A stretch of DNA of 60,489 nucleotides from an uncultured Pelagibacteraceae bacterium (GTDB taxonomy: Bacteria; Pseudomonadota; Alphaproteobacteria; Pelagibacterales; Pelagibacteraceae): positions 1 to 60,489 of the forward strand of contig CACBDD010000001.1 in NCBI GenBank assembly GCA_902537905.1. Direction: 5' to 3'. A program made the position numbers and the translations under genes. The stretch's first letter is position 1. Every line of letters starts with the position of its first letter. Below are positions 3,689-59,453 of this stretch, piece after piece. The notes under the pieces were generated by a model. That model was not told the DNA's origin, did no database searches, and saw only the letters and a list, made by a program, of their open reading frames with translations.

Positions 3689-3763
3689 AATTTAAGTTCT
3701 TAATACATTATTTAGACAAGATTTAAACATGCAAAAATCAGAATTAATTTTTAAATAATTGAT

Positions 3764-4886: not shown

Positions 4887-4887
4887 A

Positions 4888-31838: not shown

Positions 31839-33698
31839 CTAAGAAGCTTTTTTCTTCTCGTTCTCATCCACTATGTGGTAGACAGGAACTTTCTCCATAC
31901 TAAATTTGCCAGTTTTTGGATCTCTTCTAGAAACTGTTAAGCAATGCCAATTATCATCATCAAGTTTCATGTGATCACCTCTGTAATAGTATCCTGGCCA
32001 TCTAGTTTCTTCTCTAAACATTGTGTGCTCTGTTACACATTGAGAGGTTAGAGCTCTATGTTTAAGTTCCCATGCTCTCATAAGCTGGTGATAATCCTCA
32101 GCTCCAACATTTTCAAGATCTTCCTCAAGCCAAGCTAACAACTCTAATCCTCTTTTTAACATATTAGCATTAGTCATGTAATTTGTAGCTATTCCACCTA
32201 CATATTCATCCATTATTCTTTGTAAACGCTGTAAGCCTTGAATAGGTGAAATATAGCTTGGAGATACAGTTCCTCCAGTAATCTCATTTTGAGCAACTGT
32301 GTAGTTTTCTAAAGGTTTATAAACTTTAACTTTAAAATCTTCACATTGTTTGTCTGATACCTTTAAGCCCTCAGCCTTTTTGTCCTCAATGTATTTTACA
32401 GCTGCTTTTGCAGCTAATCTACCTTCAGTAAATGAGCCTGAAGAAAATTTGTGAGCGCTTCCACCTACAGTATCACCGGCTCCAAATAGTCCGTCAATTG
32501 TTAGCATTCTGTTATAGCCCCAGAAGTACTCTGGTGGAGACAAGTCCTCTGGTCCGCTTACCCAAGCTCCAGAGCAAGTAGCATGAGAACCCATTACGTA
32601 TGGTTCTGAAGTTGTTAATTCAGGATTTGTATATTTCGGGTCAATGTTTTGAGATGCCCAAACAACAGCTTGACCAACAGTCATTCCTAAGAAATTTTCC
32701 CAACCAACAGTTTCTAAATGTGGGTCTTGAAAAGCCTCAGTAGTAACCATATGAATTGGCCCACCACCCGCCATTGTTTCTTGAATAAAAGCATGATTTC
32801 TTAAACACGTAGGTGTTGGATGGTGATCTATATATTCACCTACTAATTCTTTAGTTTGGTCATACCATTTCTTCTCGTAGTTTTCACCGTTTGCATTTTG
32901 TGTATATGTTTTTAAATGTAAGAAGTAAGCTCCAACAGGTCCATATCCATCTTTAAATCTACATAATACAATTCTATTTTCCATTTGAGTCATTTTAGCA
33001 CCAGCTGCAATTGGTAATGCATATGCTGAACCATTGCTCCAAGGAGCATACCAAGTTCTTCCCATTCCTTCTCCAACAGCTCTAGGCTTAAATATGTGTG
33101 AAGCTCCTCCTGCTGCAACAATTACAGCCTTTGCTCTAAATACATGGAAATCGCCTGTTCTCATATTAAATCCAACAGCTCCACCAACTCTATTCTCTTG
33201 AGCCTCATCCATTAAAAGATGAGTGATCATAATTCTATTATAAATTTTGTCCGCAGATTTTTTTGCTGCTTCTGCAACAATTGGCTTATAACTTTCACCG
33301 TGGATCATTATCTGCCACTTACCTTCTCTTAAATATCTTCCGGTCTCTTCATTTTTCATCATAGGAAGACCCCATTCATCAAACATATGAACAGTTGAAT
33401 CTACATGACGAGCCATGTCATATCCTAAATCTTCTCTAACCATTCCCATCAAATCATTTCGTGCGTATCTGACGTGATCTTCAGGTTGATTTTCACCCCA
33501 CTGCATACCCATGTAACAGTTAATTGCGTAAAGACCTTGAGCCACTGCCCCACTTCTATCAATGTTTGCTTTTTCAACACAAACAATTTTCATATCTCTG
33601 CCCCAGTGCCTCGCTTCAAAAGTTGCACCAGTACCAGCCATACCTCCACCAACAACTAATACATCGCAGTCTTCGTAATGAGTTTTGTGCTTAGCCAT
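31839..33698 (-). CDS. aprA: Adenylylsulfate reductase alpha subunit
   Basis: RSGAVAQGL.AINCY, WQIMIHGESYK, HKFSSGS and REETRWPG.YYR.D. Confidence 0.97.
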   Translation of the reverse strand: MAKHKTHYEDCDVLVVGGGMAGTGATFEARHWGRDMKIVCVEKANIDRSGAVAQGLYAINCYMGMQWGENQPEDHVRYARNDLMGMVREDLGYDMARHVDSTVHMFDEWGLPMMKNEETGRYLREGKWQIMIHGESYKPIVAEAAKKSADKIYNRIMITHLLMDEAQENRVGGAVGFNMRTGDFHVFRAKAVIVAAGGASHIFKPRAVGEGMGRTWYAPWSNGSAYALPIAAGAKMTQMENRIVLCRFKDGYGPVGAYFLHLKTYTQNANGENYEKKWYDQTKELVGEYIDHHPTPTCLRNHAFIQETMAGGGPIHMVTTEAFQDPHLETVGWENFLGMTVGQAVVWASQNIDPKYTNPELTTSEPYVMGSHATCSGAWVSGPEDLSPPEYFWGYNRMLTIDGLFGAGDTVGGSAHKFSSGSFTEGRLAAKAAVKYIEDKKAEGLKVSDKQCEDFKVKVYKPLENYTVAQNEITGGTVSPSYISPIQGLQRLQRIMDEYVGGIATNYMTNANMLKRGLELLAWLEEDLENVGAEDYHQLMRAWELKHRALTSQCVTEHTMFREETRWPGYYYRGDHMKLDDDNWHCLTVSRRDPKTGKFSMEKVPVYHIVDENEKKKAS

Positions 33699-34168
33699 TA
33701 GTAATAAACTCCTTTTTTAAAGGACTCTTTTGGAACTGCAGGAAGTTCACCATCGATATTTAGTCCTTCAGGTTCAGTGTATAATCTTTGTGAATTTAAT
33801 TCTCCTTGTTTAATTTTTTCACCATCTGCAAGTTTAGGAATAAATTTTCCCCATGGTTTTGTTGTTATTGGCGAAACAAAGTCTTTTGTTGTTCCATTTC
33901 TAAATTTAATTTTCCAAGAAATAGTTCCTTTTTCTTCCTCACGTCTTACTCTAACGCTATGTCCCATTGGAGCAAAATCTGCATAACCTCTTACGTCAAT
34001 CGCATGATTTGGGCATGCTTTTACACATGAATAACATTCCCAACAAAAATTTGGTTCTATATTTTTTGCACGTCTAATATTTTCATCAATGTGCATTATA
34101 TCTGATGGACAAATATCTACGCAGTGACCGCATCCATCACATCTAGTCATATATACAAAAGTTGACAT
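33698..34168 (-). CDS. aprB: Adenylylsulfate reductase beta subunit
   Basis: CDGCGHCVDICPSDIM and CWECYSCVKACP ferredoxin motifs; RGYADF. Confidence 0.97.
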   Translation of the reverse strand: MSTFVYMTRCDGCGHCVDICPSDIMHIDENIRRAKNIEPNFCWECYSCVKACPNHAIDVRGYADFAPMGHSVRVRREEEKGTISWKIKFRNGTTKDFVSPITTKPWGKFIPKLADGEKIKQGELNSQRLYTEPEGLNIDGELPAVPKESFKKGVYY

Positions 34169-34199
34169 AATTTATTTTCTTTCCTTTTTTGTTATCATA

Positions 34200-34994
34200 T
34201 TAATAATGTTTTGGCTCTTCTCTTTTTATTCCTAGGCCAAATTGCTCAGGCGCATCCGCTGGAGGTGGTAAATTATCTCTAGAACCGTCTGCTTCAGCCA
34301 AATTTTTCTGTATTGCTGCTCCAGGCTTATAGAACATGTGAGCAAATTTCGACCAATAAACTCCACCAAATAAAACTAAATTAGAAACTACAAACAATGC
34401 AAAAAATAAGAATGATAAACCTACTTGACCATTAAATTGGGTATAAGACCAAGCTAGTCCAAAAGTTGAACATGCTAATAATGCTAGAACAAACAAATCA
34501 GCTTTAATAATTCTATACCAAGGGTGTGCTTCGGCAGAAACATCTACTCTTAAAAAAAACCAAAACCAAAATCCACCAACACATGTAAGTATTGCGCCTA
34601 CATGCCATAACATTGACCACAATGTAGAAGAAGTTTTATCTGCACCTGTATAACAAAACACTAACATTGCTGAAGCAATCCAAAAGATTATAGTTCCATA
34701 CATACCAAGAACATGCGCTAACCTTCTTTTTCCAAAACCTAATTCTGATGTTGTTCCAATGTCATAAACAGTAGTCTTAGCAATAATTTTTGCCTTCTCA
34801 GCAGCTCCAACCTCTCTTGTTGCCTGCAATTTTGCTTTTTTTGCATTGTTAAAGAAATAAGTTAAATTTTTGTGGTGTATCATCTGAATAATTGTTCCAA
34901 AAACAATTAAAAGAACCATTGCAATTATAAAACCTTGCATAACAACAGTAGGAACTACTTCTGATAATAACAAAAATGGATTTGTTTCAAGCAT
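34200..34994 (-). CDS. aprM: APS reductase membrane anchor
   Basis: Multi-TM protein with WSKFAHMFYKP, directly upstream of aprB. Confidence 0.9.
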   Translation of the reverse strand: MLETNPFLLLSEVVPTVVMQGFIIAMVLLIVFGTIIQMIHHKNLTYFFNNAKKAKLQATREVGAAEKAKIIAKTTVYDIGTTSELGFGKRRLAHVLGMYGTIIFWIASAMLVFCYTGADKTSSTLWSMLWHVGAILTCVGGFWFWFFLRVDVSAEAHPWYRIIKADLFVLALLACSTFGLAWSYTQFNGQVGLSFLFFALFVVSNLVLFGGVYWSKFAHMFYKPGAAIQKNLAEADGSRDNLPPPADAPEQFGLGIKREEPKHY

Positions 34995-46331: not shown

Positions 46332-47624
46332 TTAGTCTCTAATTGCATAGGCTTTAACACCAACTTCTGCAACATCAGTTCCCAGTTTTTCAGCTTGAGA
46401 ACTAATTCTAAGACCAATTGTTTGTTTTAGAACTTTGAATGTGATGTAGGAAAGTACGAAACTAAATACACATACTGCAATCACACCTGTCAACTGAGTT
46501 CCAAAATTTGTACCAGAGTTACTTAATGGAACAACTAAAGTTCCAAAGATACCAGCAAACATATGTACGGGAATAGCACCAACTACATCATCAATTTTTT
46601 TGCTTTCTAGAAATTTTGTACCAAAGTACATAATTAATGATCCAATAGCGCCTATTGCAATTGCAAGAACTGGACTTGGAGTTAAAGGTTCTGCAGTAAT
46701 TGCAACTAAACCTGCTAACGCGCCATTGAGCATCATTACGATATCTGTTTTACCACCTAGTAATCTTGTAACTACTGCAGCAGTAACTGTACCAGCAGCT
46801 CCTGCTAAGTGAGTGTTTACTGCAATTTTACTAATTGCATTAACATCATCAAAAGTTCCCATAGCAAGTTGACTAAAACCATTAAATCCAAACCAACCAA
46901 ACCATAATAAAAAAGTCCCTAATGTAACTAGTGGTATTGAAGATGCTGCAAAAGGTACCAAAGATTTTGTTTCACCTTTTTTATTAAATCTTCCTTCTCT
47001 TGCACCTAAAACTATTACACCTGCTAGTGCAGCTGCTCCACCACAAGCATGAACTAAAGTTGAACCAGCAAAATCAGAGAACCCTGAAGTTGCTAACCAG
47101 CCTCCACCCCACTGCCATCCCATTGAAATAGGATAAATGATACCAGCCATAATTGCTGCAAAAATAAAAAATGGCCAAATTTTAATTCTTTCTGCTACAG
47201 CACCCGATACAATTGATGCAGTTGCACATACAAACATTGTTTGGAAAAACCAATCAGAATAATCTGAATAACCAGTTGAAAGTTCTGAAGCATCACTCCA
47301 CATTGAGAATGATCCAATAAACCCACCTTCAGGAATTCCATATGCTAAATTATAACCACAGAAAAAAAATATTAATGAACAGATTGCAAACTTACCAATA
47401 TTTTTTGCTGCAATTGTTGAAACACTTTTAGTTGTTACCAATCCACTTTCAAGCATACAGAAACCTGCTGCCATAAATGCAACTAAAACACCACCAAGAT
47501 AAAATCCTAGGGAATTGAAAATATATTGACCTTCAGCTGACATTGTTGTTTCTGCTGAAGCAAAATTAGTAAAGCTTAAAGTTATTAATAAGCCAAATGA
47601 TATTTTTTTTAAATGATTAGTCAT
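46332..47624 (-). CDS. amtB: Ammonium transporter (paralogue 2)
   Basis: DFAGSTLVH, WFGWFGFNG and DDVVGAIPVH; likely ATG at 47624 behind AGGAGAGATA RBS. Confidence 0.95.
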   Translation of the reverse strand: MTNHLKKISFGLLITLSFTNFASAETTMSAEGQYIFNSLGFYLGGVLVAFMAAGFCMLESGLVTTKSVSTIAAKNIGKFAICSLIFFFCGYNLAYGIPEGGFIGSFSMWSDASELSTGYSDYSDWFFQTMFVCATASIVSGAVAERIKIWPFFIFAAIMAGIIYPISMGWQWGGGWLATSGFSDFAGSTLVHACGGAAALAGVIVLGAREGRFNKKGETKSLVPFAASSIPLVTLGTFLLWFGWFGFNGFSQLAMGTFDDVNAISKIAVNTHLAGAAGTVTAAVVTRLLGGKTDIVMMLNGALAGLVAITAEPLTPSPVLAIAIGAIGSLIMYFGTKFLESKKIDDVVGAIPVHMFAGIFGTLVVPLSNSGTNFGTQLTGVIAVCVFSFVLSYITFKVLKQTIGLRISSQAEKLGTDVAEVGVKAYAIRD

Positions 47625-47680
47625 TATCTCTCCTTTTTTTTGATTTGGATGTTGTAATAAACAATTAAATTTTAAGTATT

Positions 47681-47717
47681 GCTGATAGGTCAAAAGAGTT
47701 ATGATAAATAAGCATAT
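47681..47717 (-). promoter_or_regulatory. Upstream motif shared by both amtB genes (copy 2)
   Basis: Minus strand ATATGC-N8-CATA...TTTTGACCTATCAGC; contains a TATG-N9-CATA inverted repeat. Confidence 0.5.
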
Positions 47718-47721
47718 GTTT

Positions 47722-47750
47722 AAAAAAAAGGCCCCATTTCTGGGGCCTTT
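47722..47750 (-). terminator. Intrinsic terminator of amtB paralogue 1 / candidate sRNA
   Basis: AAAGGCCCCAGAAATGGGGCCTTTTTTTT. Confidence 0.85.
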
Positions 47751-47853
47751 GGTTATTAACTAACTAGAGAGAGAGATAAGTTAATTCTTTTTTTAAGAGG
47801 CTCTTCAATGAGATAACGACATGGAGATCGAAGAGCCTCTATATTGCATGCAA
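47722..47853 (-). ncRNA. Candidate 3'-UTR structured RNA with two CU-rich loops
   Basis: Stem AGAGGCTCTTC/GAAGAGCCTCT (47796-47840) with loop CUCCAUGUCGUUAUCUC; stem AAUUAACU/AGUUAGUU with loop UAUCUCUCUCUCU; then the terminator. Confidence 0.5.
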
Positions 47854-49155
47854 TTAGTCACGTATTGCGTATGCTATTACTCCTGTTTCTGTAACGTCAG
47901 TACCTTTGGTTTCAGCTTCTTTACTTAATCTAATTCCAAAAGTCGCTTTCATTATTGACCAGATTATATAGGACACAGCAAACACAAAAATGTTAATTGA
48001 AAGTACACCAATTAATTGTGCACTAAACGATGCATCAGCGTTTGTTAATGGCACTGCTAATGTTCCCCAAATACCAGCAAACATGTGAGCTGGAATTGCA
48101 CCAACAACATCGTCAAGTTTAAAGCTAAATAATAATTTAGTTCCAAACACTACGATCAATCCACCAACAGCTCCAATGAAAATAGCTGCTAATGGTGATG
48201 GTGCTAATGGTTCAGCCGTAACAGCTACAAGACCACCAATTGCTCCGTTTAACATTTGAATTACATCTGTTTTACCAAACATTAATCTTGTTATTATTGC
48301 AGCAGCCATAACACCACCACAAGCAGCAAGATTAGTATTAATAAATATACTTGATACAGCAACTGCATCATCAAATGTTCCAATAGCTAGTTGAGATCCA
48401 CCATTGAATCCGAACCAACCTAACCATAATATAAATACCCCAACAGTTACTAGTGGAATTGAAGAAGCAGCAAAAGGTTTAATTGCTTTTGCCTCACCTT
48501 TGCTATCAAATCTACCATATCTAGCACCTAACAACATGATACCTGCTAAAGCAGCTGCACCACCTGTTGAGTGTACCAATGTAGAACCAGCAAAATCAGA
48601 GAAGCCTAGTTCTGCTAACCAGCCTCCACCCCATTGCCAACCCATAACGATTGGATAAATTACACCAGCTAAAATAGCTGCAAATAAGAAAAACGGCCAT
48701 AGCTTAATTCTTTCAGCCATAGCTCCTGAACAAATTGAAACTGTTGTTGCACAGAATACCATTTGGAAGAACCAGTCTGAACCATCAGCATACCCTGTGT
48801 CAACCGCACTTGCATCTGACCAAGGTGTAAATGTTCCAATATATCCTCCTTCAGGAATTCCATATGCTAAGTTATAACCAAAAAGCCAAAACATAATTCC
48901 GGCGATTGAATATAGACCTATATTTTTAGCACAAATTACTGATACACTTTTTGAAGTTACCATACCAGATTCTAGCATCGCAAAACCCGCTGCCATGAAC
49001 ATTACAAGGAAACCACAAATTAAAAATAGAAGCGAATTAAATATCGCTTGAACTTCTCCAGAGACAGTTGTCTCTGCCATACCGGCACTACTCATATTTA
49101 ATAAAAATATTAAACTTAGAAGCGGTGCTGATATTTTTTTTATTATTTTAGTCAT
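47854..49155 (-). CDS. amtB: Ammonium transporter (paralogue 1)
   Basis: DFAGSTLVH, WLGWFGFNGGS and DDVVGAIPAH; GGAGG RBS. Confidence 0.96.
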   Translation of the reverse strand: MTKIIKKISAPLLSLIFLLNMSSAGMAETTVSGEVQAIFNSLLFLICGFLVMFMAAGFAMLESGMVTSKSVSVICAKNIGLYSIAGIMFWLFGYNLAYGIPEGGYIGTFTPWSDASAVDTGYADGSDWFFQMVFCATTVSICSGAMAERIKLWPFFLFAAILAGVIYPIVMGWQWGGGWLAELGFSDFAGSTLVHSTGGAAALAGIMLLGARYGRFDSKGEAKAIKPFAASSIPLVTVGVFILWLGWFGFNGGSQLAIGTFDDAVAVSSIFINTNLAACGGVMAAAIITRLMFGKTDVIQMLNGAIGGLVAVTAEPLAPSPLAAIFIGAVGGLIVVFGTKLLFSFKLDDVVGAIPAHMFAGIWGTLAVPLTNADASFSAQLIGVLSINIFVFAVSYIIWSIMKATFGIRLSKEAETKGTDVTETGVIAYAIRD

Positions 49156-49733: not shown

Positions 49734-50846
49734 TTATCTAAATAAACCAAGGTCTTTTAAGTCATTAAAGGTAGTGAAAAACATCAATGATAGCAACAAA
49801 AACAATCCGATTCGAAAAAAACCTTCTTGTGTTTTTTGAGATAAAGGTCTTCCTAAAATTTTTTCAAATGCATAAAACATTAAGTGTCCACCATCTAACA
49901 TTGGTATAGGAAACAGGTTAATTAAGCCTAGACTTATTGAAATATAAGCCATCATACTAATGAAAGCTAACACTCCAAAAGTTGCTACTTGCCCTGATAT
50001 CTTTGCAATTCTAATAGGGCCACCAAGTTGGGAGGTGTCTGCTTTCCCCATGATCATTCCACCGATGTATTTTAAAGATGAAACACTTACAAAATAAACT
50101 TCGTTTGCTGCATGGTACAATGCTTGTGCTGGTCCTAATTTAACATGATTAATTTTATCATTATAAGCACTTAGTTTTATACCAACCATTCTTTTATTAA
50201 TTTTATTTCCTAAACCATCTTCACCTTCAACAATATTAGGTTTTACTTTTAAAATTAATTCTTCATATGAACGCTTAACTTTAAAATCTATAAAGTCTGC
50301 TGTTGACATTGTAATATACTTTGATACTTCCATGATGCTTTTAACTTTATTGCCATCAATTTCTAAAATAATATCTTGGTTTTTTAACCCCCCAACCATT
50401 GCAGGACTATCTTTTTGAACTTCGCTTATAACTGCCGGAGTAAAATCTTTTCCAACAAAAGTATAAATACAAAAAAAGATTGCTAAAGCTAATAGAAAAT
50501 TTGCTAAAGGACCACCAAATACAATTAAAACTCTTTGATACAAAGGTTTTAAAATAAATAATTTATCTCTCTCTTCTTCATTATATTTTTCTAAAATTTC
50601 TTCATGATCAGCTTGTGAATAAACATTACGATCTCCAAAAAACTTAACATATCCACCTAATGGAATTGCACATACTTTCCATCTAGTTCCATGTTTATCA
50701 TTCCAACCAAATAATTCTTTACCAAATCCAATAGAAAAATCAGTAACCCCTACTCCATATCTTCTAGCAAAATAATAGTGTCCATATTCGTGTATAAATA
50801 CGACAACTAAAATAAGAATTAAAAATGGTATTATATAGCTAAGCAT
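49734..50846 (-). CDS. rseP: RseP intramembrane Zn metalloprotease (M50, PDZ)
   Basis: HEYGH, FSIGFG, PLGGYVK and NLFPIPMLDGGH. Confidence 0.95.
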   Translation of the reverse strand: MLSYIIPFLILILVVVFIHEYGHYYFARRYGVGVTDFSIGFGKELFGWNDKHGTRWKVCAIPLGGYVKFFGDRNVYSQADHEEILEKYNEEERDKLFILKPLYQRVLIVFGGPLANFLLALAIFFCIYTFVGKDFTPAVISEVQKDSPAMVGGLKNQDIILEIDGNKVKSIMEVSKYITMSTADFIDFKVKRSYEELILKVKPNIVEGEDGLGNKINKRMVGIKLSAYNDKINHVKLGPAQALYHAANEVYFVSVSSLKYIGGMIMGKADTSQLGGPIRIAKISGQVATFGVLAFISMMAYISISLGLINLFPIPMLDGGHLMFYAFEKILGRPLSQKTQEGFFRIGLFLLLSLMFFTTFNDLKDLGLFR

Positions 50847-50921
50847 ATTTTTATATTTTAAATTAATATCATATTAATCACAACCCCTCATTACCAATGG
50901 CAAATCTTGGTTTTGAATTTA

Positions 50922-52961
50922 TTATCTATAACTTATTAAAACTTTATCAGGATCTCCTGCTAAAGATGGGTTTTGTTCTCTTCCAAGCTCTGCTGCTTTT
51001 TGTGAAACGTTTTCATTCATATAAGCTAACAATTCACCATTAGTGATTTTTTTATCTTTATTAGCATCTGCTTTGCCTTCTAAACCTTTCATGAGATAAT
51101 ATGAAAATATTCCATGTTTTGCCTCTTTTAAACCAGATGAAATTTGATCTAATTTTGAGGCACTAAATATTGTAAAATTGCTAGGTGTCTCTTCTTCATT
51201 ATTAGAGATTATTCTTACTGGTCTTGCTGATGCAAGGAGTGTTTTTTCATCTCTTGAAATACCGCTATAACAAGTATCAAAAAACATCGTAACGTTTTTT
51301 GGTTTTAGCTTAATAATGCTCTCAAATAGTTCATTTCTAGATAAAGCTGTTCTTTGAAGTAGATCAGGATCGCTATCCTGAGGTAATAAAAATAAATCCT
51401 CACCATTATTTGATGCAAGTCCGTGACCTGCAAAGAATATTATTAATTCTGTTTTATTTTTATTTATTTTTGCTGGTAACCATTTGTTTAAAACACCTAA
51501 AGATTGGATTAGATTTGCATCTTTATCAATTAGTAATTTGATATTTTCAGTTGGAACACCAAATCCTAAACTAACATATTCATAAAAATATCTGGCATCG
51601 TCATTGGCATAGGAAGCTGTCGGTGTTCTATCATATTTTTCTATACCAATAATTATTGCAACTTTATCACTTGAAAGATGATTGTAGACTTTACTACTAG
51701 GATTTAATTTTTCTATTTTTTTTTGTGCTGTTTTTAAATTTCTTTCAATTTTAATACTAACAATTTTCTCTTTAGATCTATTGCCCCATTGATCTATTGC
51801 AAAAATTTTAACCTGTTCATCCACAGGACTAAATCTTTCAAATACAAATTTCCCATTTTTTGCATCTTGAATTATACCATCTATTTCAACGTAAATATTT
51901 TTTGAACCTTCATCAACTACTTTACCTTCTAATTTGTAAGAGGAATTTTTGAATGTTAAATTATTTGCGATAATAATTTTTGGAGGAGTATTATCTTTAT
52001 TTGTTTTTTGAGTAACAATTTTTTGGGTGGGAGTATTATCTATTTTATCTAACGTTTGATCAAAGTACTTGTTTGCAATTTCAATAATCACACTCTTTTG
52101 TCTAGAAAAGAAAGCTGTTACAACATCCCCTTTGTCACTAAAGCCTTGTCCAATACCCGGGCTATATAAAGATTGTTGCTGCCAAGAACCATCAATTTTA
52201 TCCTCAGGACACTTTAAAATAAAAGAACCATTAAAAGGAGGATTAAATGTTTTTTGTTCAGATCTTACGTAGCAAATAATATTATCTGTTGAGTAAACTT
52301 TGCCAACTTGAACTGTGTTGGTTGCAGCTTTAGTTGAACCTGTATATTTTTTACCCTCTGAAGAATGCCCAAAAAAATAATAATCACTCGTATCAAGATT
52401 ATTTAATTCATTTATCAATCTTTCTTTTTCATTATTTTCAACTTTTTTGACTAATTTTTTCTCTGGTTTTTTATTTTCTTCTTTTTTTATTTCTTTAGTT
52501 GGATTTAATTTTTCATTTAATTTCATCAAACCAGCTATATATGCCTGGTTAAGTTCATTTCTATTTATATCAAAATCATTTAAATTTAACGTCTGCATTA
52601 TATATTTTCTGCTACCTTTGGATGTTAAAGAAAAAATTTCGGTAAATAATTCTATTGAATTAGAAGTAATAAATTCAAGGTTTCTTTCTGACAAAACTGT
52701 TAGAGTTTTATCAGAAGTAGTGTTTATATTGTGCTTATTTACACATAAATAAAATTTACTATCTAAATTTTTATTTTTTTTATTAATTAAGGCTAATTGA
52801 TATTTTTTTTCATTGAGGCTTTCTAACCACAGTAAATTTATTTTATTAAGTCCACCAAGTTGATTAACTAGATTTGCACAATCAATGCCAATTCTAATCG
52901 AAGCAAGAGAGTTATTTGAGATAACTAAAAATATAAAAATTAAAAAAATTTTCAGTCTCAT
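50922..52961 (-). CDS. Exported caspase-family (peptidase C14-like) protein
   Basis: Signal peptide; C-terminal VAIIIGIEKY...ANDDA...FFAGHG...FFDTCYSG...HGIFSYYLMKGL; Ig-like spacer beginning DNTPPKI. Confidence 0.85.
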   Translation of the reverse strand: MRLKIFLIFIFLVISNNSLASIRIGIDCANLVNQLGGLNKINLLWLESLNEKKYQLALINKKNKNLDSKFYLCVNKHNINTTSDKTLTVLSERNLEFITSNSIELFTEIFSLTSKGSRKYIMQTLNLNDFDINRNELNQAYIAGLMKLNEKLNPTKEIKKEENKKPEKKLVKKVENNEKERLINELNNLDTSDYYFFGHSSEGKKYTGSTKAATNTVQVGKVYSTDNIICYVRSEQKTFNPPFNGSFILKCPEDKIDGSWQQQSLYSPGIGQGFSDKGDVVTAFFSRQKSVIIEIANKYFDQTLDKIDNTPTQKIVTQKTNKDNTPPKIIIANNLTFKNSSYKLEGKVVDEGSKNIYVEIDGIIQDAKNGKFVFERFSPVDEQVKIFAIDQWGNRSKEKIVSIKIERNLKTAQKKIEKLNPSSKVYNHLSSDKVAIIIGIEKYDRTPTASYANDDARYFYEYVSLGFGVPTENIKLLIDKDANLIQSLGVLNKWLPAKINKNKTELIIFFAGHGLASNNGEDLFLLPQDSDPDLLQRTALSRNELFESIIKLKPKNVTMFFDTCYSGISRDEKTLLASARPVRIISNNEEETPSNFTIFSASKLDQISSGLKEAKHGIFSYYLMKGLEGKADANKDKKITNGELLAYMNENVSQKAAELGREQNPSLAGDPDKVLISYR

Positions 52962-52985
52962 ATTGAAAGAATATTATATACTTTT

Positions 52986-54371
52986 CTATTCTAATACAAA
53001 TTCACAACCTGCTCCACAAGCATCACTAGCATTTTTTAAGGCTTCTTCTACCGAGCCGCCTGCTAATAAAGTATCATAATATGCCTCAAAGCCTGCTGCA
53101 ACTGCTGCTTCCTCAATACCATCTTGTATGGCTCTTTCAATTTCGTTATCTATATGCTGAGCTAATTCGTCCTCTAAGGCTTGATCAATAGCCTCTCCTG
53201 TAGCTTGCTCGATTGCATCAACTATACTCTCTGACGTAGCCTCACCAATTGATTTTTCAATTGCTTCTTGGACACTCTGATTGATTGCTTTTTCCATTTC
53301 TTTTTCAACAGCGTCATCCACAGAGTCGTCAATTATTTCATTTAATTTCTTATCAATGATTTTCTGAATCTCATCTTCTGTTACATTATACTCTTCAGAT
53401 AATCTTGTTTTGGCTTTTCGTATTGCTGCATCAATTTTGATATTAAAAATTTCCATGTTAAGAGCTATTGCTGTTCTTCCACCCAATTTAATATAATAAT
53501 GAAAAGCTTCATTACGTGGAGTTAATACTTGATAAAAGAAAGCTTTATGTTTTGATACATATCTTCCTTCGAATGTAAGAATTTTTGCACCATCAATAAA
53601 TAATTGCAATTTATGAGCTTCAGGATCCCATTTTGCTTTTTCTTTCTTGCCAAATGGGTTGTTTAAGACTTTTTTTAAACTTTTAAATGATTTGCTTATA
53701 TCTTTTTTGGCTTTTTCGATATTTTTAGCCACATCTAGACCAGTATAGATATTATAAACTTTTTCTTTTGTTGTTATGTATTGCTCTCCTCCATTAAAAT
53801 ATTGATATTTAAAATTATCAACTATGTGAAATAATTTTTTATTGTCTGACAATCTAACAATTTTAATACCTCCTGGCCTATAAGGAAGTATTTTAAAGTT
53901 TTTATAAATTATTTCGGTTTTTTCCCAACTTTTTTTTCCTGGATCTTTTTGATACACAAAATCATATTCAAAAATTTTTCTTTTTTTGTAATCTTGAAGA
54001 TCAATATTTTCTCCTGAATTTTCTTTTTCTTGTAAAAAGGATTTTGATTTTTTAAATTCTTCTTCTGATATAACACCATCTTCAAAAAGCTTTGTTAAAA
54101 CCTCTATTTGTTTGTTTAAAGTGATAGAATTTTTGTCATCTCCTGATACTTCTGTGGTTTTCTGATTTTTGAGTTTATTTTTTTTTATTAATAATCTAGA
54201 TTTAATCTTATCATATTCCTCATTATCCATAGCTCCGGCTTTGAATAAATTATCTATAGACTCGATTTGCTTATCTATTTTATTTATCTCTTCGATGTTT
54301 GAATTTGAATTAACAATTGTTATTGTTAACAAAAGAAATATTAAAATAATTTTTTTAAAGATTAAAAACAT
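52986..54371 (-). CDS. Exported protein with two SHOCT domains and acidic helical repeats
   Basis: Likely ATG at 54371 (signal peptide MFLIFKKIILIFLLLTITIV); LFKAGAMDNEEYDKIKSRLL and LFEDGVISEEEFKKSKSFL SHOCT patterns. Confidence 0.75.
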   Translation of the reverse strand: MFLIFKKIILIFLLLTITIVNSNSNIEEINKIDKQIESIDNLFKAGAMDNEEYDKIKSRLLIKKNKLKNQKTTEVSGDDKNSITLNKQIEVLTKLFEDGVISEEEFKKSKSFLQEKENSGENIDLQDYKKRKIFEYDFVYQKDPGKKSWEKTEIIYKNFKILPYRPGGIKIVRLSDNKKLFHIVDNFKYQYFNGGEQYITTKEKVYNIYTGLDVAKNIEKAKKDISKSFKSLKKVLNNPFGKKEKAKWDPEAHKLQLFIDGAKILTFEGRYVSKHKAFFYQVLTPRNEAFHYYIKLGGRTAIALNMEIFNIKIDAAIRKAKTRLSEEYNVTEDEIQKIIDKKLNEIIDDSVDDAVEKEMEKAINQSVQEAIEKSIGEATSESIVDAIEQATGEAIDQALEDELAQHIDNEIERAIQDGIEEAAVAAGFEAYYDTLLAGGSVEEALKNASDACGAGCEFVLE

Positions 54372-54454
54372 ATTTAATAATAACAAATACTTACTTTCAT
54401 GAAATATTAAATATTGATGATTGTATTTATTCACTATTTTAAATAGAGTTAGAA

Positions 54455-55954
54455 ATGATTTTAAACAAATTTTTTTCATTTCTAGTAATAGTTGTTTTTT
54501 TCATCAACCTAAATAACGCATATTCAAAAAATTTTAATGACAACTTAAGAACAATAAGGGCAGAAATTAATAGGGATAACCTTCAAGAAGCAATAGAGAT
54601 AATAAAAAAAATTGAAATCTCAAGTGAAATTCAACAAGAAAAAATTGACTTACTCTTTGGAGATATCTACTTAAAGATAAATCAAATTGATAAGGCTGAG
54701 GAATATTATCAAAAGAACTTTTTTACCTCTAATGAAGAAATTGAAGCTCAAACCTTTATTGGTTTAGCAGAAGTAAGGCTTGTTCAAGGAAAATTAAAAG
54801 AGGCTATTAAATATGCTGAATTATCAACAAAAATTAATTCAGATAAAATAAGGCCAAAGATAATACTGGCAATTGCTAAAACTCGTTTAGGAGAAGTCGA
54901 TGAAGGTTTTGAAATATTAAACGAACTTTATTTAAATAGAAAAGATGCGGAAGTTGCTTTAGCAATTTCAAATTATTTTAGTTCATTTGATGAAACCAAA
55001 AAAGCAATAGATATTTTAGAAGAATTTATCAAAAGAGACCCCAATAACATTAAAGTTTTAAATCAACTAGCTAGTCTTTACTTATTTGATGGTAATAAAG
55101 AAAAAGCAATCGAATATAAAATGATTGTTTATAAATATTATGAATTTAATCGTAATAGAAAAAAACAAAAACAAACAAAATCATGGATATTATCTGTAGA
55201 TCCCAAACATTTTGATAAACCAATTAAAGTAAGAAAAAATCAAAAAAAGGAACAAGAAGAATATCAAGAAGAAGAAATTTCAAATTATGAAGAAAATAAA
55301 ATAACCCCAAACTATGAAGAATTTAATTTTGCCTGGAATGGCGCTGGGAGTGGTTTTATTGTGGCAAATGGTAAATATGCAATAACAAACCACCATGTCA
55401 TAGATGGTGCTAAAAAAATTGCTATTAGAAATGGTATTGGAAAGGTAACTGAAGCTACAATTGCAGCTATATCAGAAGAATATGATCTTGCAATATTAGA
55501 GCTAACATATCCTTATCCAAAAAAATACTCAATTGATGCTAAAAATTTTATTGAACCATTAGCAGGTGAGGATGTCATATCTATTGGTTTCCCTGGCATA
55601 GGTTTAACTAATGAATTGCCAACTATTACACAAGGTATAGTTAGCAAAGTTTTTGACGATAGCTGGGGAAGATTTTTAACAACGGTTAGAATAAATCCAG
55701 GTAATAGTGGTGGGCCAATTTTTAATCTTAAAGGTCAACTTATTGGAGTTAGTGTTGCTATGCTTGATAAAAATAATTGGAAAGAAGAATTTGGTGAAGA
55801 TATTACCGATATGGGTATTGGTATAAAAAGTAATATGATTGAGAAAGTTTTTAAATATGAAAAAAGTGTTCCTGTAAAATCTGTAAAGTATGATAAAGTA
55901 GCAATTTATGAAAAGATGTTACCAAGTATTGCTTTCGTAGTTGTTTCAAGATAA
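54455..55954 (+). CDS. Exported TPR-repeat plus trypsin-like (S1) serine protease
   Basis: Signal peptide, TPR-like helices, then GSGF, TNHHV, DLAIL and INPGNSGGP triad motifs. Confidence 0.88.
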   Translation: MILNKFFSFLVIVVFFINLNNAYSKNFNDNLRTIRAEINRDNLQEAIEIIKKIEISSEIQQEKIDLLFGDIYLKINQIDKAEEYYQKNFFTSNEEIEAQTFIGLAEVRLVQGKLKEAIKYAELSTKINSDKIRPKIILAIAKTRLGEVDEGFEILNELYLNRKDAEVALAISNYFSSFDETKKAIDILEEFIKRDPNNIKVLNQLASLYLFDGNKEKAIEYKMIVYKYYEFNRNRKKQKQTKSWILSVDPKHFDKPIKVRKNQKKEQEEYQEEEISNYEENKITPNYEEFNFAWNGAGSGFIVANGKYAITNHHVIDGAKKIAIRNGIGKVTEATIAAISEEYDLAILELTYPYPKKYSIDAKNFIEPLAGEDVISIGFPGIGLTNELPTITQGIVSKVFDDSWGRFLTTVRINPGNSGGPIFNLKGQLIGVSVAMLDKNNWKEEFGEDITDMGIGIKSNMIEKVFKYEKSVPVKSVKYDKVAIYEKMLPSIAFVVVSR

Positions 55955-55960
55955 GAATTG

Positions 55961-56743
55961 ATGAAAAAATTTATTCTTTTTTTTTTAATTTTCACATTAC
56001 CTTTAAATGCAGAGATAGTAACAGAAACAGGTAAACATAAACACCTAGGTAAAAATTATACAACAGAACAATCATGTAAAATTGCTCGAGAAAAAGCAGA
56101 AAAAAATGCTCTTATAAAATCATTAGGTCAAACTATTTCATCGGAAACAGTTTCTAATTGTTCTGAAGTTGACGGTGAATTTGAATGTGAAAGAAATCAA
56201 CTATCATTATTTAAACTTAACGGGGTAATAACTAGTTCAAAAGAAATAAATAGAAATGATGGCAAAGAATTAGGATCAGAAATTTATTTTTGTGAAATTA
56301 CAATTGAAGCTAATGTTGAACCAATTAAACGAAAATCTGATCCATCGTTTCATTTTGATGCTAAATTAAACAAAAAAGTTTTTAGATCTGGTGAAAACCT
56401 AGAAATAAATATTAATACATCAAAAAAAATGTATATGGCAATATTCCAATGGCTGCCTTATGGGGGTAAAAAATACAATATAATTACAAAAATATTTCCA
56501 AATGAAAAATTTAACAAAAACACTAAGGATCTTGTGGAAGGTAATCTTCAACTTAAATATGAAACTTATTTTCCAGATGAAATTAAATATAAAAAAGTGG
56601 ATGAATATTTAATTTTTGTTGCGTCTGAAAAAAAAATCCCTTGGCTAGAAGAATATGTTGATAGAACATCATTATCTAAACAGTTAAATAAGAAAAATTT
56701 ATTGATGGAAGTCCAAAGTAATAGTTATATAATAATCAGATAA
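55961..56743 (+). CDS. Exported protein: LPP20/FlgT-N-like domain plus DUF4384-like domain
   Basis: Signal peptide; A.E.A..NAL...G..ISSET helix and 4 Cys; C-terminal F.SGE.L.I.I..SK.MYM.IF...KIFPN pattern of DUF4384. Confidence 0.65.
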   Translation: MKKFILFFLIFTLPLNAEIVTETGKHKHLGKNYTTEQSCKIAREKAEKNALIKSLGQTISSETVSNCSEVDGEFECERNQLSLFKLNGVITSSKEINRNDGKELGSEIYFCEITIEANVEPIKRKSDPSFHFDAKLNKKVFRSGENLEININTSKKMYMAIFQWLPYGGKKYNIITKIFPNEKFNKNTKDLVEGNLQLKYETYFPDEIKYKKVDEYLIFVASEKKIPWLEEYVDRTSLSKQLNKKNLLMEVQSNSYIIIR

Positions 56744-57984
56744 TGTACAAAATTTTTATTACGTATTTATCAGCAGCCTTAATAAGTTTATCAACTATAT
56801 CATTTGCTGATGACCATACTCCTAAAAGAAATCTAATTAATAAACTTAAAGAAGAAATTACTGAACTTGGTGCTGAACCTGTAAAAAGAAAAGGAATTTT
56901 ATCTTCTCTTCAAAAATGGATTGATGAATTAGAGGCACAATTAGAAAAACTAAAAAAAATTGAAGCTTTAAAAGCTGAACTTAATAAAGAATTGGAAGAA
57001 CTGGGTGAAAAACCAGTATCAAAAGAAGCAAGTGAACTGGAAGCTGACGAGCAAATAATTGCTCTTAGAAAACAAATAGAAGATACCAAAGCTAAAAAGA
57101 AAGAAGCTGAAGAAAAGAAAAAAAGAGACGCCAAAATTGCTGTTGCTGTAGAAATGTTAAAAGATGAAATTGCAGCATTAGGCGAAGAACCAGAGATTGA
57201 TACAAGCGACATAGACTCTGATGAACAAGTAAAAGCTTTAAAAGAACAAATCAAAAAAATTAAAGAGAAAAAAAAGGCTAAAAAAGAAGAAGCTGAAAAA
57301 AAAGCTGCCAAAGAGAAAAAAGTTGAAGAAAAAAAACAAACTAGATTGAAGGCAATTGAAGGTGTCAAAAAAGAAATATTGTTTATGGGCGAAACCCCTA
57401 TGTCTGAATATGAATTTACATCTGAAGATGAATATATAGCAGCTTTGAGAAAACAAGTTGAGGAAATTAAAAAAATTAAAGAGGAAGAAGAATTTAAAAT
57501 CAATGCGGCAATACCAGATTGGTATGTTTCAATGCCTCCAAGTTCTGAGATTATTATGTATGCAAGAGGAAGTGCAATATCAGCTGATTTAGATAATTCT
57601 GAACAAAGAGCTGTGGAAAATGCATTAATAAAATTATCAACTCAAATGCAAAATAGAATTAGTAACAAAACTAATTTGGTTATTAAAGAAGCTGGAGTTG
57701 ATGCAGATCTAACATTAAAAACTGAAATGCAAAGAATTTCGAGTGTTGTTGTTAAAAATGCAACAATTAGAGGTTATAAAGTTTACAAAACTAAAATGGC
57801 AGCTCTATCAAATGGTAAATATAGAACATTTGTTGTAATCGAGTTTCCTGTAAGTTTAGCTTATAAAAACTTTATTGCAGAAATTGACAACAATGTCAGC
57901 GTCAAAGCTGAAGTAAACAAATTAAAAAATACTGACGCTTTTAAAGAGTTAGAACAATATGTTGCTGAATTTACTGGAGCTTAA
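56743..57984 (+). CDS. Exported coiled-coil repeat protein with C-terminal LPP20-like domain
   Basis: Signal peptide; four L.EI..LG..P repeats; IPDWY...YARGSAIS.D...SEQRA..NA...L LPP20-like C-terminus; coupled to the previous gene (TAATG). Confidence 0.7.
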   Translation: MYKIFITYLSAALISLSTISFADDHTPKRNLINKLKEEITELGAEPVKRKGILSSLQKWIDELEAQLEKLKKIEALKAELNKELEELGEKPVSKEASELEADEQIIALRKQIEDTKAKKKEAEEKKKRDAKIAVAVEMLKDEIAALGEEPEIDTSDIDSDEQVKALKEQIKKIKEKKKAKKEEAEKKAAKEKKVEEKKQTRLKAIEGVKKEILFMGETPMSEYEFTSEDEYIAALRKQVEEIKKIKEEEEFKINAAIPDWYVSMPPSSEIIMYARGSAISADLDNSEQRAVENALIKLSTQMQNRISNKTNLVIKEAGVDADLTLKTEMQRISSVVVKNATIRGYKVYKTKMAALSNGKYRTFVVIEFPVSLAYKNFIAEIDNNVSVKAEVNKLKNTDAFKELEQYVAEFTGA

Positions 57985-58322
57985 TCACAAGCTAAATTTT
58001 CTCTTGCGCCCATCAAAACACCAGCCCAAAATCCGGTAGCAGCACTTTGATTATTGTCTCTTCTTACAGCTTCGCACTCCAACATTTTTCTAGTTAATAT
58101 AGCTTGTTTCCGAGCCAAATCTAAATTCATCAAACAATCAGAAAAACTATCAGTGCCCTCTTTAAAGCCATAATACTTACAAGTATCAATGTCTTCAACT
58201 CGCTGTTTTTTTATAAGTTCTTTTTCCTTAATTAATTTCATCTTTTTTTGCTCAGATCTATAATCTGCACAAGAGGTAAGTAAAATAGAAAATAAAATAA
58301 AACACAATACTTTTTGAAACAT
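57981..58322 (-). CDS. Small lipoprotein
   Basis: Lipobox LTSC; C..YGF..GT..F..C motif plus two more Cys. Confidence 0.75.
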   Translation of the reverse strand: MFQKVLCFILFSILLTSCADYRSEQKKMKLIKEKELIKKQRVEDIDTCKYYGFKEGTDSFSDCLMNLDLARKQAILTRKMLECEAVRRDNNQSAATGFWAGVLMGARENLACD

Positions 58323-58361
58323 TCAAATAATTCTAATTAAATTTTAATTTATATAAAAGAA

Positions 58362-59312
58362 TTAATTTAATAATTTTTTCTTGGCTTTTTCAAATTCTTC
58401 TTTGGTAAGAACTCCAGCTTGAAGGAGTTCTTTTAATTCATTTAATCGTTTTACAAAATCATTATTAGAGTCACTTGACGCAACAACATTATCTTTCTCT
58501 ATATCGTCTAAAATCGCATCACTCAAATCAAGTTTGTGCTTTTTTCTTGCTTTCCATATAACTTCAAATTCTTTATGTCTCTTTGCTGATAAAGAAGTAA
58601 ACTCATCAATAAATTTTTTAAATTCAGGATGTTTATCTATATTATTTCTGTGATACTCACTCGTTTCTTCAGTGAAATATTTATTTTTCGGACCTCCATA
58701 GGCCTCAGGATTAATTAAAAAATAAACACCTGGACCATTTTCTGTTACAACGGGTGCATAGTATTCATGTATAGCTGACAATAATATTTTTGGTTTTATT
58801 ACATCATTTTCTTTATACCATCTTCGTAAAATTGGTCTTATACCTCCTACATCATCTGGATCATCTGGACGGTTCATTTCTTTATCATGATCAATATGTC
58901 TAACTCTAAGACAATTAGATGCAGTTCCTTTTATATATAAATTTGCATAATAATATTCAGGTCTTAATGTGCAGCTATCATATTCACCTCTTGTATAAAG
59001 TTTATTTAGCCAGGAACCTAAGTCAGCTGTGTATCTTCCTCCAGATCTAAATTCACACATAGACATTAAAGATTTAAATATTCTGCCTTCTTTAAGAATA
59101 AAATTTTTACATGAATAACCAAAACCTGCCCACCACCATGAACTTTGTCTGATATATTCCCACTTGCCTTCTGGCAAATTGACTTTCATTTTTTTCCACT
59201 TTAGTGTTCCCTCATAAAAATTACCCTTGACAAATTTAGTTTTTGCTTCTGAATTTTGAATTGGGATAATTAAACAAAATAGAACAAATAATATACTTAA
59301 GAATCTAAACAT
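58362..59312 (-). CDS. Exported protein with C-terminal SHOCT domain
   Basis: Signal peptide; four Cys in the mature part; C-terminal LNELKELLQAGVLTKEEFEKAKKKLLN. Confidence 0.8.
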   Translation of the reverse strand: MFRFLSILFVLFCLIIPIQNSEAKTKFVKGNFYEGTLKWKKMKVNLPEGKWEYIRQSSWWWAGFGYSCKNFILKEGRIFKSLMSMCEFRSGGRYTADLGSWLNKLYTRGEYDSCTLRPEYYYANLYIKGTASNCLRVRHIDHDKEMNRPDDPDDVGGIRPILRRWYKENDVIKPKILLSAIHEYYAPVVTENGPGVYFLINPEAYGGPKNKYFTEETSEYHRNNIDKHPEFKKFIDEFTSLSAKRHKEFEVIWKARKKHKLDLSDAILDDIEKDNVVASSDSNNDFVKRLNELKELLQAGVLTKEEFEKAKKKLLN

Positions 59313-59453
59313 AATTTAAACTATCACAAAATATTATAAATTATTATTTATTTTTTGAATTTATAATATAGGGAAAACAAAATAAGGCCTACAAAGACAA
59401 TTCCTAAAATATACTTAAATATTGATTAAAAAATATATCTACAAACTCAATAA

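What the first reader, a model, noticed from the sequence alone, without database searches (positions are those of the whole stretch)
50922..59312. Seven-gene cluster of exported proteins pairing a caspase-like protease with a TPR-trypsin protease, plus SHOCT, LPP20 and DUF4384 partners
Seen in sequence: between rseP and an OrdL-like gene lie seven ORFs, each starting with a signal peptide or lipobox. Two divergent units share an 83-bp spacer (54372-54454): leftward SHOCT2-repeat protein then caspase; rightward TPR-trypsin, DUF4384 protein, repeat-LPP20 protein. A convergent SHOCT protein and a lipoprotein close the block. Both proteases keep their catalytic residues (His-Cys dyad; His-Asp-Ser triad). 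Established: C14 caspase-like and S1 trypsin-like domains with TPR sensors recur in bacterial conflict and signalling systems, mostly cytoplasmic; SHOCT is an oligomerisation domain; DUF4384 is often fused to caspase domains. Inference: this is an envelope-localised proteolytic switch or cascade (TPR sensing, protease activation, cleavage of SHOCT-oligomerised substrates). It may act in phage or predator defence or in envelope remodelling. Spending 8.4 kb on it in a streamlined genome implies selection, and adjacency to the site-2 protease RseP hints at a relay inward.
Basis: partly seen in the sequence, partly recalled or inferred. Interest (0 to 1): 0.85.

Follow-up and report, generated by a model that had tools for sequence, protein, structure and literature searches.

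The report
Exported bait-carrying caspase system in SAR11
A mobile block of genes in a few percent of SAR11 ocean bacteria joins a fixed three-gene core to caspase-like proteases, all predicted to be exported, and in many family members the protease's front end is a copied piece of the cell's own envelope proteins, which likely serves as bait that would switch the protease on when a virus or toxin attacks the envelope.

Summary
There are seven ORFs, all with signal-peptide-like or lipobox starts, an 83-bp divergent spacer, and intact His513/Cys564 and His314/Asp344/Ser418.

The block is a conserved, mobile module. TPR-trypsin > g4 > LPP20 is a fixed operon (g4 follows in 71 of 71 metagenomic loci with room). 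All 13 of 400 genus genomes with g4 also carry the caspase. The module sits at 7 or more chromosomal sites and also occurs in another alphaproteobacterial family. The RseP link is not supported (0 of 80 loci).

New here: the caspases form a large polymorphic family (signal peptide, swappable modules, Ig domain, C14 protease). In 20 of 235 members the modules are copies of the host's own envelope proteins (TolA-C, CpoB, DolP, DacA, solute-binding proteins). TolA-C appears captured at least twice and diverges fast. Domains of g4, g5 and g7 also occur fused to caspases. g4 has the Lpp20/FlgP fold with the ring-forming hairpin.

Best reading (0.45): a periplasmic guard system with bait-bearing caspases on a predicted Lpp20 ring plus an HtrA-type protease. 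Trigger, substrate and binding are untested, and the window caspase's own modules match no host protein.

The parts
50922..52961 (-). g1: predicted exported caspase-like protease (679 aa): signal-like N-terminus, module A (~aa 22-153), module B (~179-302), Ig-like domain (~322-410), C14 domain (433-669) with H513/C564
   Evidence: Ig label from weak Glucodextran_B hits in paralogues
52986..54371 (-). g2: predicted exported protein (461 aa): two SHOCT helix pairs, beta-rich middle, long acidic helical tail ending in CGxxC; cognate partner of module-A caspases
   Evidence: 14 of 14 module-A caspases in metagenomic loci lie directly downstream of g2
54372..54454 (.). 83-bp divergent spacer between the g2-g1 unit and the g3-g4-g5 operon
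   Evidence: promoter-like sites not above chance (42 vs 52 in shuffles)
54455..55954 (+). g3: TPR array + HtrA/DegS-type trypsin-like protease (499 aa), triad H314/D344/S418, no PDZ; core gene
55961..56743 (+). g4: Lpp20/FlgP/dodecin (SHS2)-fold domain with a long Cys-stapled beta-hairpin insert, plus a DUF4384-like Ig domain (260 aa); core gene
56743..57984 (+). g5: charged helical repeats + C-terminal LPP20 domain (413 aa); core gene; a lipoprotein in some homologues
57981..58322 (-). g6: small predicted lipoprotein (113 aa), accessory
   Evidence: 4 of 80 loci
58362..59312 (-). g7: predicted exported protein with C-terminal SHOCT (316 aa), accessory; its N-terminal domain occurs fused to a caspase (P0397)
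50850..59450 (.). Approximate limits of the accessory island
   Evidence: DNA similarity to relatives ends at ~50,850-50,890; summed contig depth falls inside these limits

Best explanation
This is a mobile module of proteins predicted to be exported, with a fixed TPR-trypsin > g4 > LPP20 operon and one to several caspase-like proteases whose swappable N-terminal modules include copies of the host's own envelope proteins; these copies likely act as baits, so that binding by a phage protein or toxin would activate the caspase, likely on a ring predicted to be built from the two Lpp20-fold proteins and likely with help from the HtrA-type protease. SHOWN: gene content, linkage, mobility, intact catalytic residues, module swapping, capture of TolA-C, CpoB, DolP, DacA and solute-binding domains, fast divergence of captured TolA-C, fusion of g4, g5 and g7 domains to caspases, and g2/module-A pairing. 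PREDICTED: export, the g4 fold and its ring-type hairpin, Arg/Lys specificity. INFERRED: bait function, ring assembly, docking, the order of cleavage and the outcome (destruction of the invader's proteins or of the host envelope). For the window's own caspase, module A likely works with g2 as a guard-partner pair rather than as a copy of a host protein.
For: Linkage: all 13 of 400 genus genomes with g4 are among the 16 with a strong caspase match, and in 12 of 12 others g4 lies on the caspase's contig within ~12 kb. In metagenomic loci g4 follows g3 in 71 of 71, g5 in 32 of 32, and a caspase is present in 25 of 27 loci of 7 kb or more. The order caspase > TPR-trypsin > g4 > lipoprotein > LPP20 recurs in G789, another alphaproteobacterial family. 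Conflict-like genetics: carriers are interspersed with non-carriers, including sister pairs; the rarD-sdhE site is empty in 9 of 9 non-carriers; there are 1-5 caspases per genome, at least 2,319 clusters at 90% identity, and 73 N-terminal types among 118 members. Capture: 20 of 235 N-termini match G000's own genes and every match is an exported or envelope protein (TolA-C 13, CpoB 5, DolP 1, DacA 1, solute-binding 1, a 585-aa exported protein 1; two members carry both TolA-C and CpoB); SurA_N, three solute-binding classes, PDZ, MORN and DUF305 also occur. Captured TolA-C falls into two groups, one nested among native Pelagibacter TolA, with 55.5% mean pairwise identity against 88.9% for native copies. 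The captured DacA has lost the Ser of SxN and has KTG changed to KTS. G000's own paralogue at C5:9352-11622 carries TolA-C. Rosetta fusions: g4 domain in P0381, LPP20 in P0356, g7 domain in P0397. Ring: g4 model pLDDT 91, strand-helix-hairpin-strand-strand; dodecin Z 7.8, rmsd 2.5, 64 aligned; 9hmf_A of the Campylobacter motor scaffold E 1.4e-3; ring formation correlates with this hairpin insert (PMC12222027).
Against: No trigger, substrate or death effector was identified, and no pore-former, NTPase or membrane-spanning partner was seen in the Pelagibacter loci. Only 20 of 235 N-termini (19 of 147 outside the module A/B types) match a host gene, though the reference genome is 57% complete. 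The window caspase's modules A and B match nothing in G000. Fast divergence of captured domains can reflect relaxed constraint rather than an arms race; all dN/dS values computed for the window genes are below 1. Deep branch support in the TolA tree is weak (0.15-0.77), so two captures is likely, not proven. PADLOC gives only generic caspase and trypsin domain hits. G713 has g4 + LPP20 without either protease in the 20 kb read, and G592 has no caspase in the 16 kb read, so the scaffold can stand without caspases. The dodecin Z of 7.8 is within the range of common arrangements.
Confidence: 0.45

Rival explanations
1. Address tags, not baits: the captured domains deliver a housekeeping or remodelling protease to the septum, the Tol-Pal machine, outer-membrane assembly sites or the cell wall, and the HtrA-type g3 does envelope quality control on an Lpp20 scaffold.
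For: The captured proteins (TolA, CpoB, DolP, DacA, SurA_N) act at division and outer-membrane biogenesis (roles recalled). g3 is closest to DegS/DegP/DegQ. All domains tested are under purifying selection.
Against: A housekeeping role fits poorly with presence in 16 of 400 genomes, gain and loss between sister lineages, 73 N-terminal types in 118 proteins and strong divergence of captured TolA-C.
Confidence: 0.2
2. Offensive polymorphic weapon: caspases are released (for example in vesicles) and use variable modules to dock on rival cells; tandem arrays of ~195-aa exported paralogues would be immunity proteins.
For: Constant signal peptide plus cassette-like modules joined by a recurrent 13-15-residue linker. 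The ~195-aa arrays often flank the module and occur in 7 of 16 carriers against 27 of 384 non-carriers.
Against: The enzyme is the constant part, unlike polymorphic toxins. No dedicated gene follows each caspase. The arrays occur in many genomes without caspases and were not found in G000 (57% complete). No secretion system is linked.
Confidence: 0.12
3. Nutrient sensing or scavenging: solute-binding modules gate a periplasmic protease cascade that frees peptides or signals to an ECF sigma factor.
For: Three classes of solute-binding domain are fused to caspases. An ECF sigma and anti-sigma pair lies divergently beside the caspase in G789. DUF4384 also occurs in the cleaved Csx30 of Craspase, which binds RpoE (10.1101/2022.08.17.504292).
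Against: Most modules are not solute-binding domains. No sigma, anti-sigma or transporter gene was recognised in the Pelagibacter loci, and rseP is unlinked.
Confidence: 0.13
4. Random pile-up of exported genes at an insertion hotspot.
For: g6, g7 and the ~195-aa arrays come and go; stand-alone caspases sit at other sites.
Against: Fixed order in 71 of 71 and 32 of 32 loci, nesting of 13 within 16 of 400 genomes, conservation in G789, cognate g2/module-A pairing (14 of 14) and three Rosetta fusions.
Confidence: 0.03

Closest known systems
EACC1-caspase two-gene conflict system (Kaur et al. 2020, PMC7159879, section 33 read)
   Same: A constant caspase fused to a highly variable set of domains, which there includes housekeeping-like (EF-Tu) and periplasmic-binding domains; proposed sensor-triggered proteolysis.
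   Different: Here the caspase is C-terminal behind an Ig domain and has a signal-like start; no EACC1 membrane protein is adjacent; NF047832 scores 57.7 against a cut-off of 140; partners are TPR-HtrA, Lpp20-fold and SHOCT proteins; the host is a unicellular streamlined bacterium.
Plant NLR receptors with integrated domains (PMC4759884, PMC9528084: search listing and abstract starts only)
   Same: Copies of host proteins are fused to a constant signalling unit, with repeated capture, divergence and loss of catalytic residues in the copy. This is an analogy of logic.
   Different: No homology: no NB-ARC or LRR; the constant unit is a protease; the compartment is the bacterial envelope; bait function is untested here.
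FlgP/FlgT/Lpp20 periplasmic rings (PMC12222027, passages read)
   Same: g4 has the SHS2/dodecin fold with the long hairpin between helix and second strand that correlates with ring formation; g5 is LPP20; G789 adds a GNA1162-like lipoprotein.
   Different: Not in a flagellar locus; no Flg_bb_rod match in G000 (57% complete); linked to proteases; ring formation not shown.
HtrA/DegS-RseP envelope stress proteolysis
   Same: g3's protease domain is closest to DegS/DegP/DegQ.
   Different: TPR array instead of PDZ; the HtrA N-terminal helix-strand appears moved to the C-terminus (weak support); all scores far below family cut-offs; rseP adjacency is incidental.
Prokaryotic metacaspases with N-terminal signal or membrane helices (PMC3501461, passages read)
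   Same: Exported caspase homologues with varied accessory domains are known in general.
   Different: The passages seen describe no such operon or capture of host envelope domains; SAR11 and Pelagibacter do not occur in that text.

Membership tests
Peptidase C14 (caspase-like) | Pfam C14 above gathering score and His-Cys dyad | tested here: met
   58.3 vs 21.4 bits; H513/C564
Peptidase C14 (caspase-like) | Proteolytic activity and P1 specificity | not testable with these tools
   D455 and D562 are invariant in 97 of 97 aligned sequences; their link to Arg/Lys specificity is recalled
EACC1-caspase conflict system | Adjacent 5' gene for the single-TM EACC1 protein | tested here: not met
   The upstream gene is g2 (SHOCT, no internal hydrophobic peak); no EACC1 hit among the seven proteins
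EACC1-caspase conflict system | N-terminal caspase with variable C-terminal domains; NF047832 cut-off 140 | tested here: not met
   The caspase is C-terminal; score 57.7, 57-63 in relatives
EACC1-caspase conflict system | Constant caspase with many alternative fused domains | tested here: met
   73 N-terminal types in 118 members
HtrA/Do serine proteases | Trypsin-like domain with His-Asp-Ser triad | tested here: met
HtrA/Do serine proteases | C-terminal PDZ domain(s) and family cut-off | tested here: not met
   No PDZ hit; TIGR02037 94.1 vs 416.2
DegS-RseP-sigmaE relay | Conserved linkage to rseP and an anti-sigma substrate | tested here: not met
   rseP in 0 of 80 loci; module next to 0 of 16 other strong rseP matches; a sigma/anti-sigma pair only beside G789. 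Linkage was tested, a functional relay was not.
Lpp20/FlgP/FlgT (SHS2) ring proteins | SHS2 fold with hairpin insert after the helix | tested here: met
   g4 model; dodecin Z 7.8, rmsd 2.5, 64 aligned; 9hmf_A; g5 Pfam LPP20 27.4 vs 25.9
Lpp20/FlgP/FlgT (SHS2) ring proteins | Assembly into rings | not tested
Polymorphic toxin systems | Variable C-terminal toxin domain followed by a cognate immunity gene | tested here: not met
   The C-terminal enzyme is constant (36-99% identity); the variable part is N-terminal; no fixed downstream gene
Catalogued anti-phage systems (PADLOC 2.0) | Full-length matches of the components to one system's models | tested here: inconclusive
   Only domain-level caspase, trypsin and TPR hits to unrelated systems; the library dates from 2023
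Integrated-decoy immune receptors (by analogy) | Host-derived domain fused to a constant signalling unit | tested here: met
   20 of 235 family members, including G000's own C5 paralogue; not the window caspase itself
Integrated-decoy immune receptors (by analogy) | The copied domain binds an attacker's protein and this triggers the response | not testable with these tools
   Needs binding and activation assays

The most novel reading that the evidence does not exclude
This is a bacterial immune-receptor repertoire of the integrated-decoy type that works outside the cytoplasm. Caspases repeatedly capture the envelope proteins that phages, toxins or predators engage (TolA-C, CpoB, DolP, DacA, SurA, solute-binding proteins), shuffle them through a conserved linker, and fire on a non-flagellar Lpp20 ring that acts as a periplasmic inflammasome-like platform with an HtrA amplifier. 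The captured domains would then be a direct list of the envelope targets attacked in the ocean's most abundant bacterium.
Probability: 0.3. Interest if true: 0.93.

Novelty: new variant of a known kind. Interest (0 to 1): 0.78.

Why it matters
Almost all described caspase/trypsin conflict systems act in the cytoplasm or at the inner membrane of large-genome, often multicellular bacteria (recalled, and consistent with the passages read in PMC7159879 and PMC10907252). A wholly exported, polymorphic version in streamlined SAR11 would add a periplasmic layer of defence. If the captured domains are baits, they make an open question testable: which envelope proteins pelagiphages and other attackers use to enter SAR11. 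It would also show plant-style integrated decoys arising independently in bacteria, and give a non-flagellar role to Lpp20/FlgP-type rings and to DUF4384. Even if the bait reading fails, the conserved TPR-HtrA/g4/LPP20 operon (756 g4 clusters at 50% identity) is a module I did not find described in the ten searches run.

Tried and rejected
Complex prediction of g4 (17-260) with the g1 Ig-caspase part gave no answer (score 0.00); it is no evidence either way.

g2 model: pLDDT 68.6, pTM 0.48. Foldseek found nothing at E <= 0.001. VIA-align rows covered only residues 1-75 at Z <= 7.6. No pore-forming fold was seen, and none is excluded. The g4 Ig domain matches macroglobulin/complement MG domains only at generic Z 8-9.

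The caspase profile found no PDB sequence; the g4 profile found nothing significant. No caspase relative was found in viral contigs. No g4 relative at E <= 1e-12 was found in 250 other genomes of the phylum sample; 3 of 400 class genomes had full-length matches. No Atlas result was obtained for g2 or for modules A and B, so their remote relatives remain open.

Promoter scan not above chance. RNA run X20 has contigs over parts of g1 and g5, but contigs cannot show transcription. The idea that g3's trypsin part varies more than its TPR part was rejected (68.4% vs 69.0% mean identity). Circular permutation of g3: the tail profile lands on the N-terminal helix-strand of all 13 SAR11-order HtrA proteins tested, but is not significant against the proteome (E >= 0.11), so it is a lead only.

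The g4-g5 profile alignment is in register over 93 columns at only 6.6% probability. The ~195-aa arrays were rejected as an obligatory part. L037, filed under a Bacteroidota MAG, is ~99% identical to a Pelagibacter locus and was not counted as transfer between phyla. Three look-ups in earlier findings returned nothing. The PMC3417536 'Lpp20' hit was only a reference to Legionella Lpp2082.

Full report
OBSERVATION. The window is contig C1 of G000, a 57%-complete genome. Relatives of its caspase are named Candidatus Pelagibacter by their sources. DUF4384 in g4 is sub-threshold but passes in an orthologue. The dyad H513/C564 and the triad H314/D344/S418 (72 of 72 homologues) are intact. SignalP could not be run; a simple heuristic marks 7 of 7 ORFs as exported against 10.6% of the genome's ORFs. 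GC content is not distinctive.

IT IS ONE MODULE. Of 400 genus genomes, 21 match the Ig-caspase part, 16 of them strongly (E < 1e-50); the other 5 are 21-23% identity hits that I set aside. None of the 16 is among the 72 genomes that are at least 90% complete. g4 occurs in 13 of 400, all within those 16. In the fetched loci g4 is followed by LPP20 in 13 of 13 and preceded by TPR-trypsin in 12 of 13 (G217 lacks it), with caspases on either side. Among the best 80 of 254 metagenomic g3 loci, g4 follows in 71 of 71 with 400 bp or more of room, g5 in 32 of 32 with 2.6 kb or more, and a caspase is present in 25 of 27 loci of 7 kb or more. g2 is in 19 of 80, g6 in 4, g7 in 4 and rseP in 0. g2 is directly upstream of every module-A caspase (14 of 14 metagenomic loci; 5 further g2 loci end too soon; 5 of 5 genome loci). 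Outside SAR11, 3 of 400 class genomes hold full-length g4. G789 has caspase > TPR-trypsin > g4 > GNA1162-like lipoprotein > LPP20 > small protein, beside an ECF sigma/anti-sigma pair. G592 has TPR-trypsin (in two ORFs) > g4 > LPP20. G713 has only lipoprotein > g4 > LPP20.

IT IS MOBILE, AND RseP IS INCIDENTAL. The module lies at 7 or more different sites, most often between rarD and the small gene I label sdhE (labels recalled). G000 itself has two more caspases at that site. That site is empty in 9 of 9 non-carriers, and a five-protein tree of 19 genomes or loci intermixes carriers and non-carriers, for example G387 (+) with G023 (-), and G007 (-) inside a carrier clade (incomplete genomes can hide a copy). 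Sixteen other genomes with a strong rseP match have unrelated genes upstream of it. Summed contig depth in three DNA runs is 929-6,342 over rseP and 5-332 across the island bins. The right flank rises again in two runs but only weakly in X1; the tool warns that these sums are not cell fractions. dN is below dS in every domain pair where dS could be computed, though dS is near saturation.

THE CASPASES ARE POLYMORPHIC. The architecture is signal peptide, variable modules, Ig-like domain, C14 domain. The constant part is 36-99% identical between 37 copies, while N-termini are mosaics. The window's g1 combines module A and module B, which also occur separately. The family has at least 2,319 clusters at 90% identity; 118 members from a second search fall into 73 N-terminal types. 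Both catalytic motifs were found in 36 of 37 locus copies, 116 of 120 (two misses keep the Cys, one has Cys to Gly, one lacks the His motif) and 118 of 118. A linker of the type KTQIAKAEPSQTQ, conserved in DNA, separates modules in 16 of 157 and 44 of 118 members. It is absent from g1. It may be a recombination anchor or a self-cleavage site (inference).

CAPTURE OF HOST ENVELOPE DOMAINS. Searching 235 N-termini against G000, 20 match host genes, and all are exported or envelope proteins: TolA C-terminal domain (13), CpoB/YbgF TPR (5), DolP, DacA, a solute-binding protein and a 585-aa exported protein (identities; names). No match to a cytoplasmic protein appeared, which the need to fold after export could also explain. 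Pfam adds SurA_N, SBP_bac_8, OpuAC, Peripla_BP_6, PDZ, MORN, SHOCT and DUF305 (in one search I scanned 63 of 73 representatives). Captured TolA-C forms one group of 4 nested among native Pelagibacter TolA (74-85% to the nearest native) and an older group of 9 (46-60%). Mean pairwise identity is 55.5% among captured copies against 88.9% among 13 closely related native copies; deep support is weak. The captured DacA has SxN changed to NxN and KTG to KTS (one single-contig protein). G000's paralogue at C5:9352-11622 carries TolA-C. That TolA-C is the docking site of filamentous phage g3p and of group A colicins is recalled, not checked here. The window caspase's own modules match no G000 gene. 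Domains of g4 (lacking the hairpin), g5 and g7 are found fused into caspases, which ties the partner genes to the protease.

THE CORE. The g4 model (pLDDT 91) has strand 18-29, helix 35-55, hairpin 57-86 and strands 88-121, then an Ig sandwich; four Cys are nearly invariant in 96 sequences. The first domain matches dodecin (Z 7.8) and chain A of the Campylobacter motor scaffold. PMC12222027 (passages) states that FlgP, FlgT, Lpp20 and dodecin share this fold and that ring formation correlates with an insert at this position. g5 carries LPP20 behind a variable number of helical repeats and is a lipoprotein in some homologues. No flagellar rod match was found in G000. g3 is HtrA-like without PDZ. 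DUF4384 is described as often fused to proteases and as one form of the cleaved Csx30 tail (10.1101/2022.08.17.504292, passage; PMC7475262, passages).

MECHANISM. Most likely (0.45): the variable module holds the caspase off until a foreign protein engages it, or engages its partner (g2 for module A). Clustering on an Lpp20 ring and/or cleavage by g3 would then activate it, and it would cut the invader's proteins or the host envelope. Every step after gene content is inferred. Rivals are address tags for envelope remodelling (0.2), nutrient or sigma-factor signalling (0.13), an offensive weapon (0.12) and random pile-up (0.03).

COMPARISON AND NOVELTY. It works most like the EACC1-caspase system (PMC7159879, passages and section 33) but fails its membership tests. 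It resembles sensor-plus-peptidase conflict systems (PMC10907252, passages) without their NTPases or adaptors. It follows the logic of plant integrated decoys (listing and abstract starts only). Exported metacaspases as such are known (PMC3501461, passages). Ten literature searches listed no paper whose title or abstract start describes this operon or caspases in SAR11. The library lacks most subscription journals, and I did not read supplements, such as the neighbourhood tables of PMC7159879, which could list it. I file it as a new variant of caspase/trypsin conflict systems. It would be categorically new if the bait-on-ring reading is confirmed.

Noticed in passing
L007:9352-14343 (G000:C5): Two further tandem exported caspases of the same family between rarD and the small gene labelled sdhE; the downstream one carries a TolA C-terminal domain.
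   Followed up: yes
L018:458-7638, L017:4820-11531, L015:13048-16385: Tandem arrays of up to ~10 exported ~195-aa paralogues (26-42% identity to one member, no clear Pfam family), some spaced by ~115-bp gaps. Found in 34 of 400 genus genomes, enriched in carriers but also without caspases; may be a separate diversifying system.
   Followed up: partly
window 46332-49155: Two tandem ammonium-transporter-like genes; several close relatives have only one at this site.
   Followed up: no
window 49734-50846: rseP lies with HU and amt rather than in the usual dxr-bamA cluster (recalled), and 7 of 23 same-genus genomes searched had no strong rseP match, including two that are 92% complete.
   Followed up: partly
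L102:14711-16197 (G789): ECF sigma factor and anti-sigma-like gene divergent from the caspase operon in a distant alphaproteobacterium.
   Followed up: partly
L102:7247-7726 and L103:2112-2630: A small exported protein of no Pfam family ends the operon in both G789 and G592; no counterpart was noticed in the SAR11 loci.
   Followed up: no
P0198, P0215: Family members with two caspase domains; in P0198 the first lacks the catalytic Cys and follows a captured DacA domain.
   Followed up: partly
L012:157-4369 (G387), L138, L146: An integrase-like gene (by eye, cluster c61) lies beside the module in three loci, a possible route of mobility.
   Followed up: no
L028:3524-6027 (G342): A run of five type IV pilin-like genes two genes from a stand-alone caspase.
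   Followed up: no
L037: A contig filed under a Bacteroidota MAG is ~99% identical to a Pelagibacter locus; likely misbinned.
   Followed up: yes
window 31839-34994: aprA/aprB/aprM-like adenylylsulfate reductase genes (recognised by eye, not scanned).
   Followed up: no
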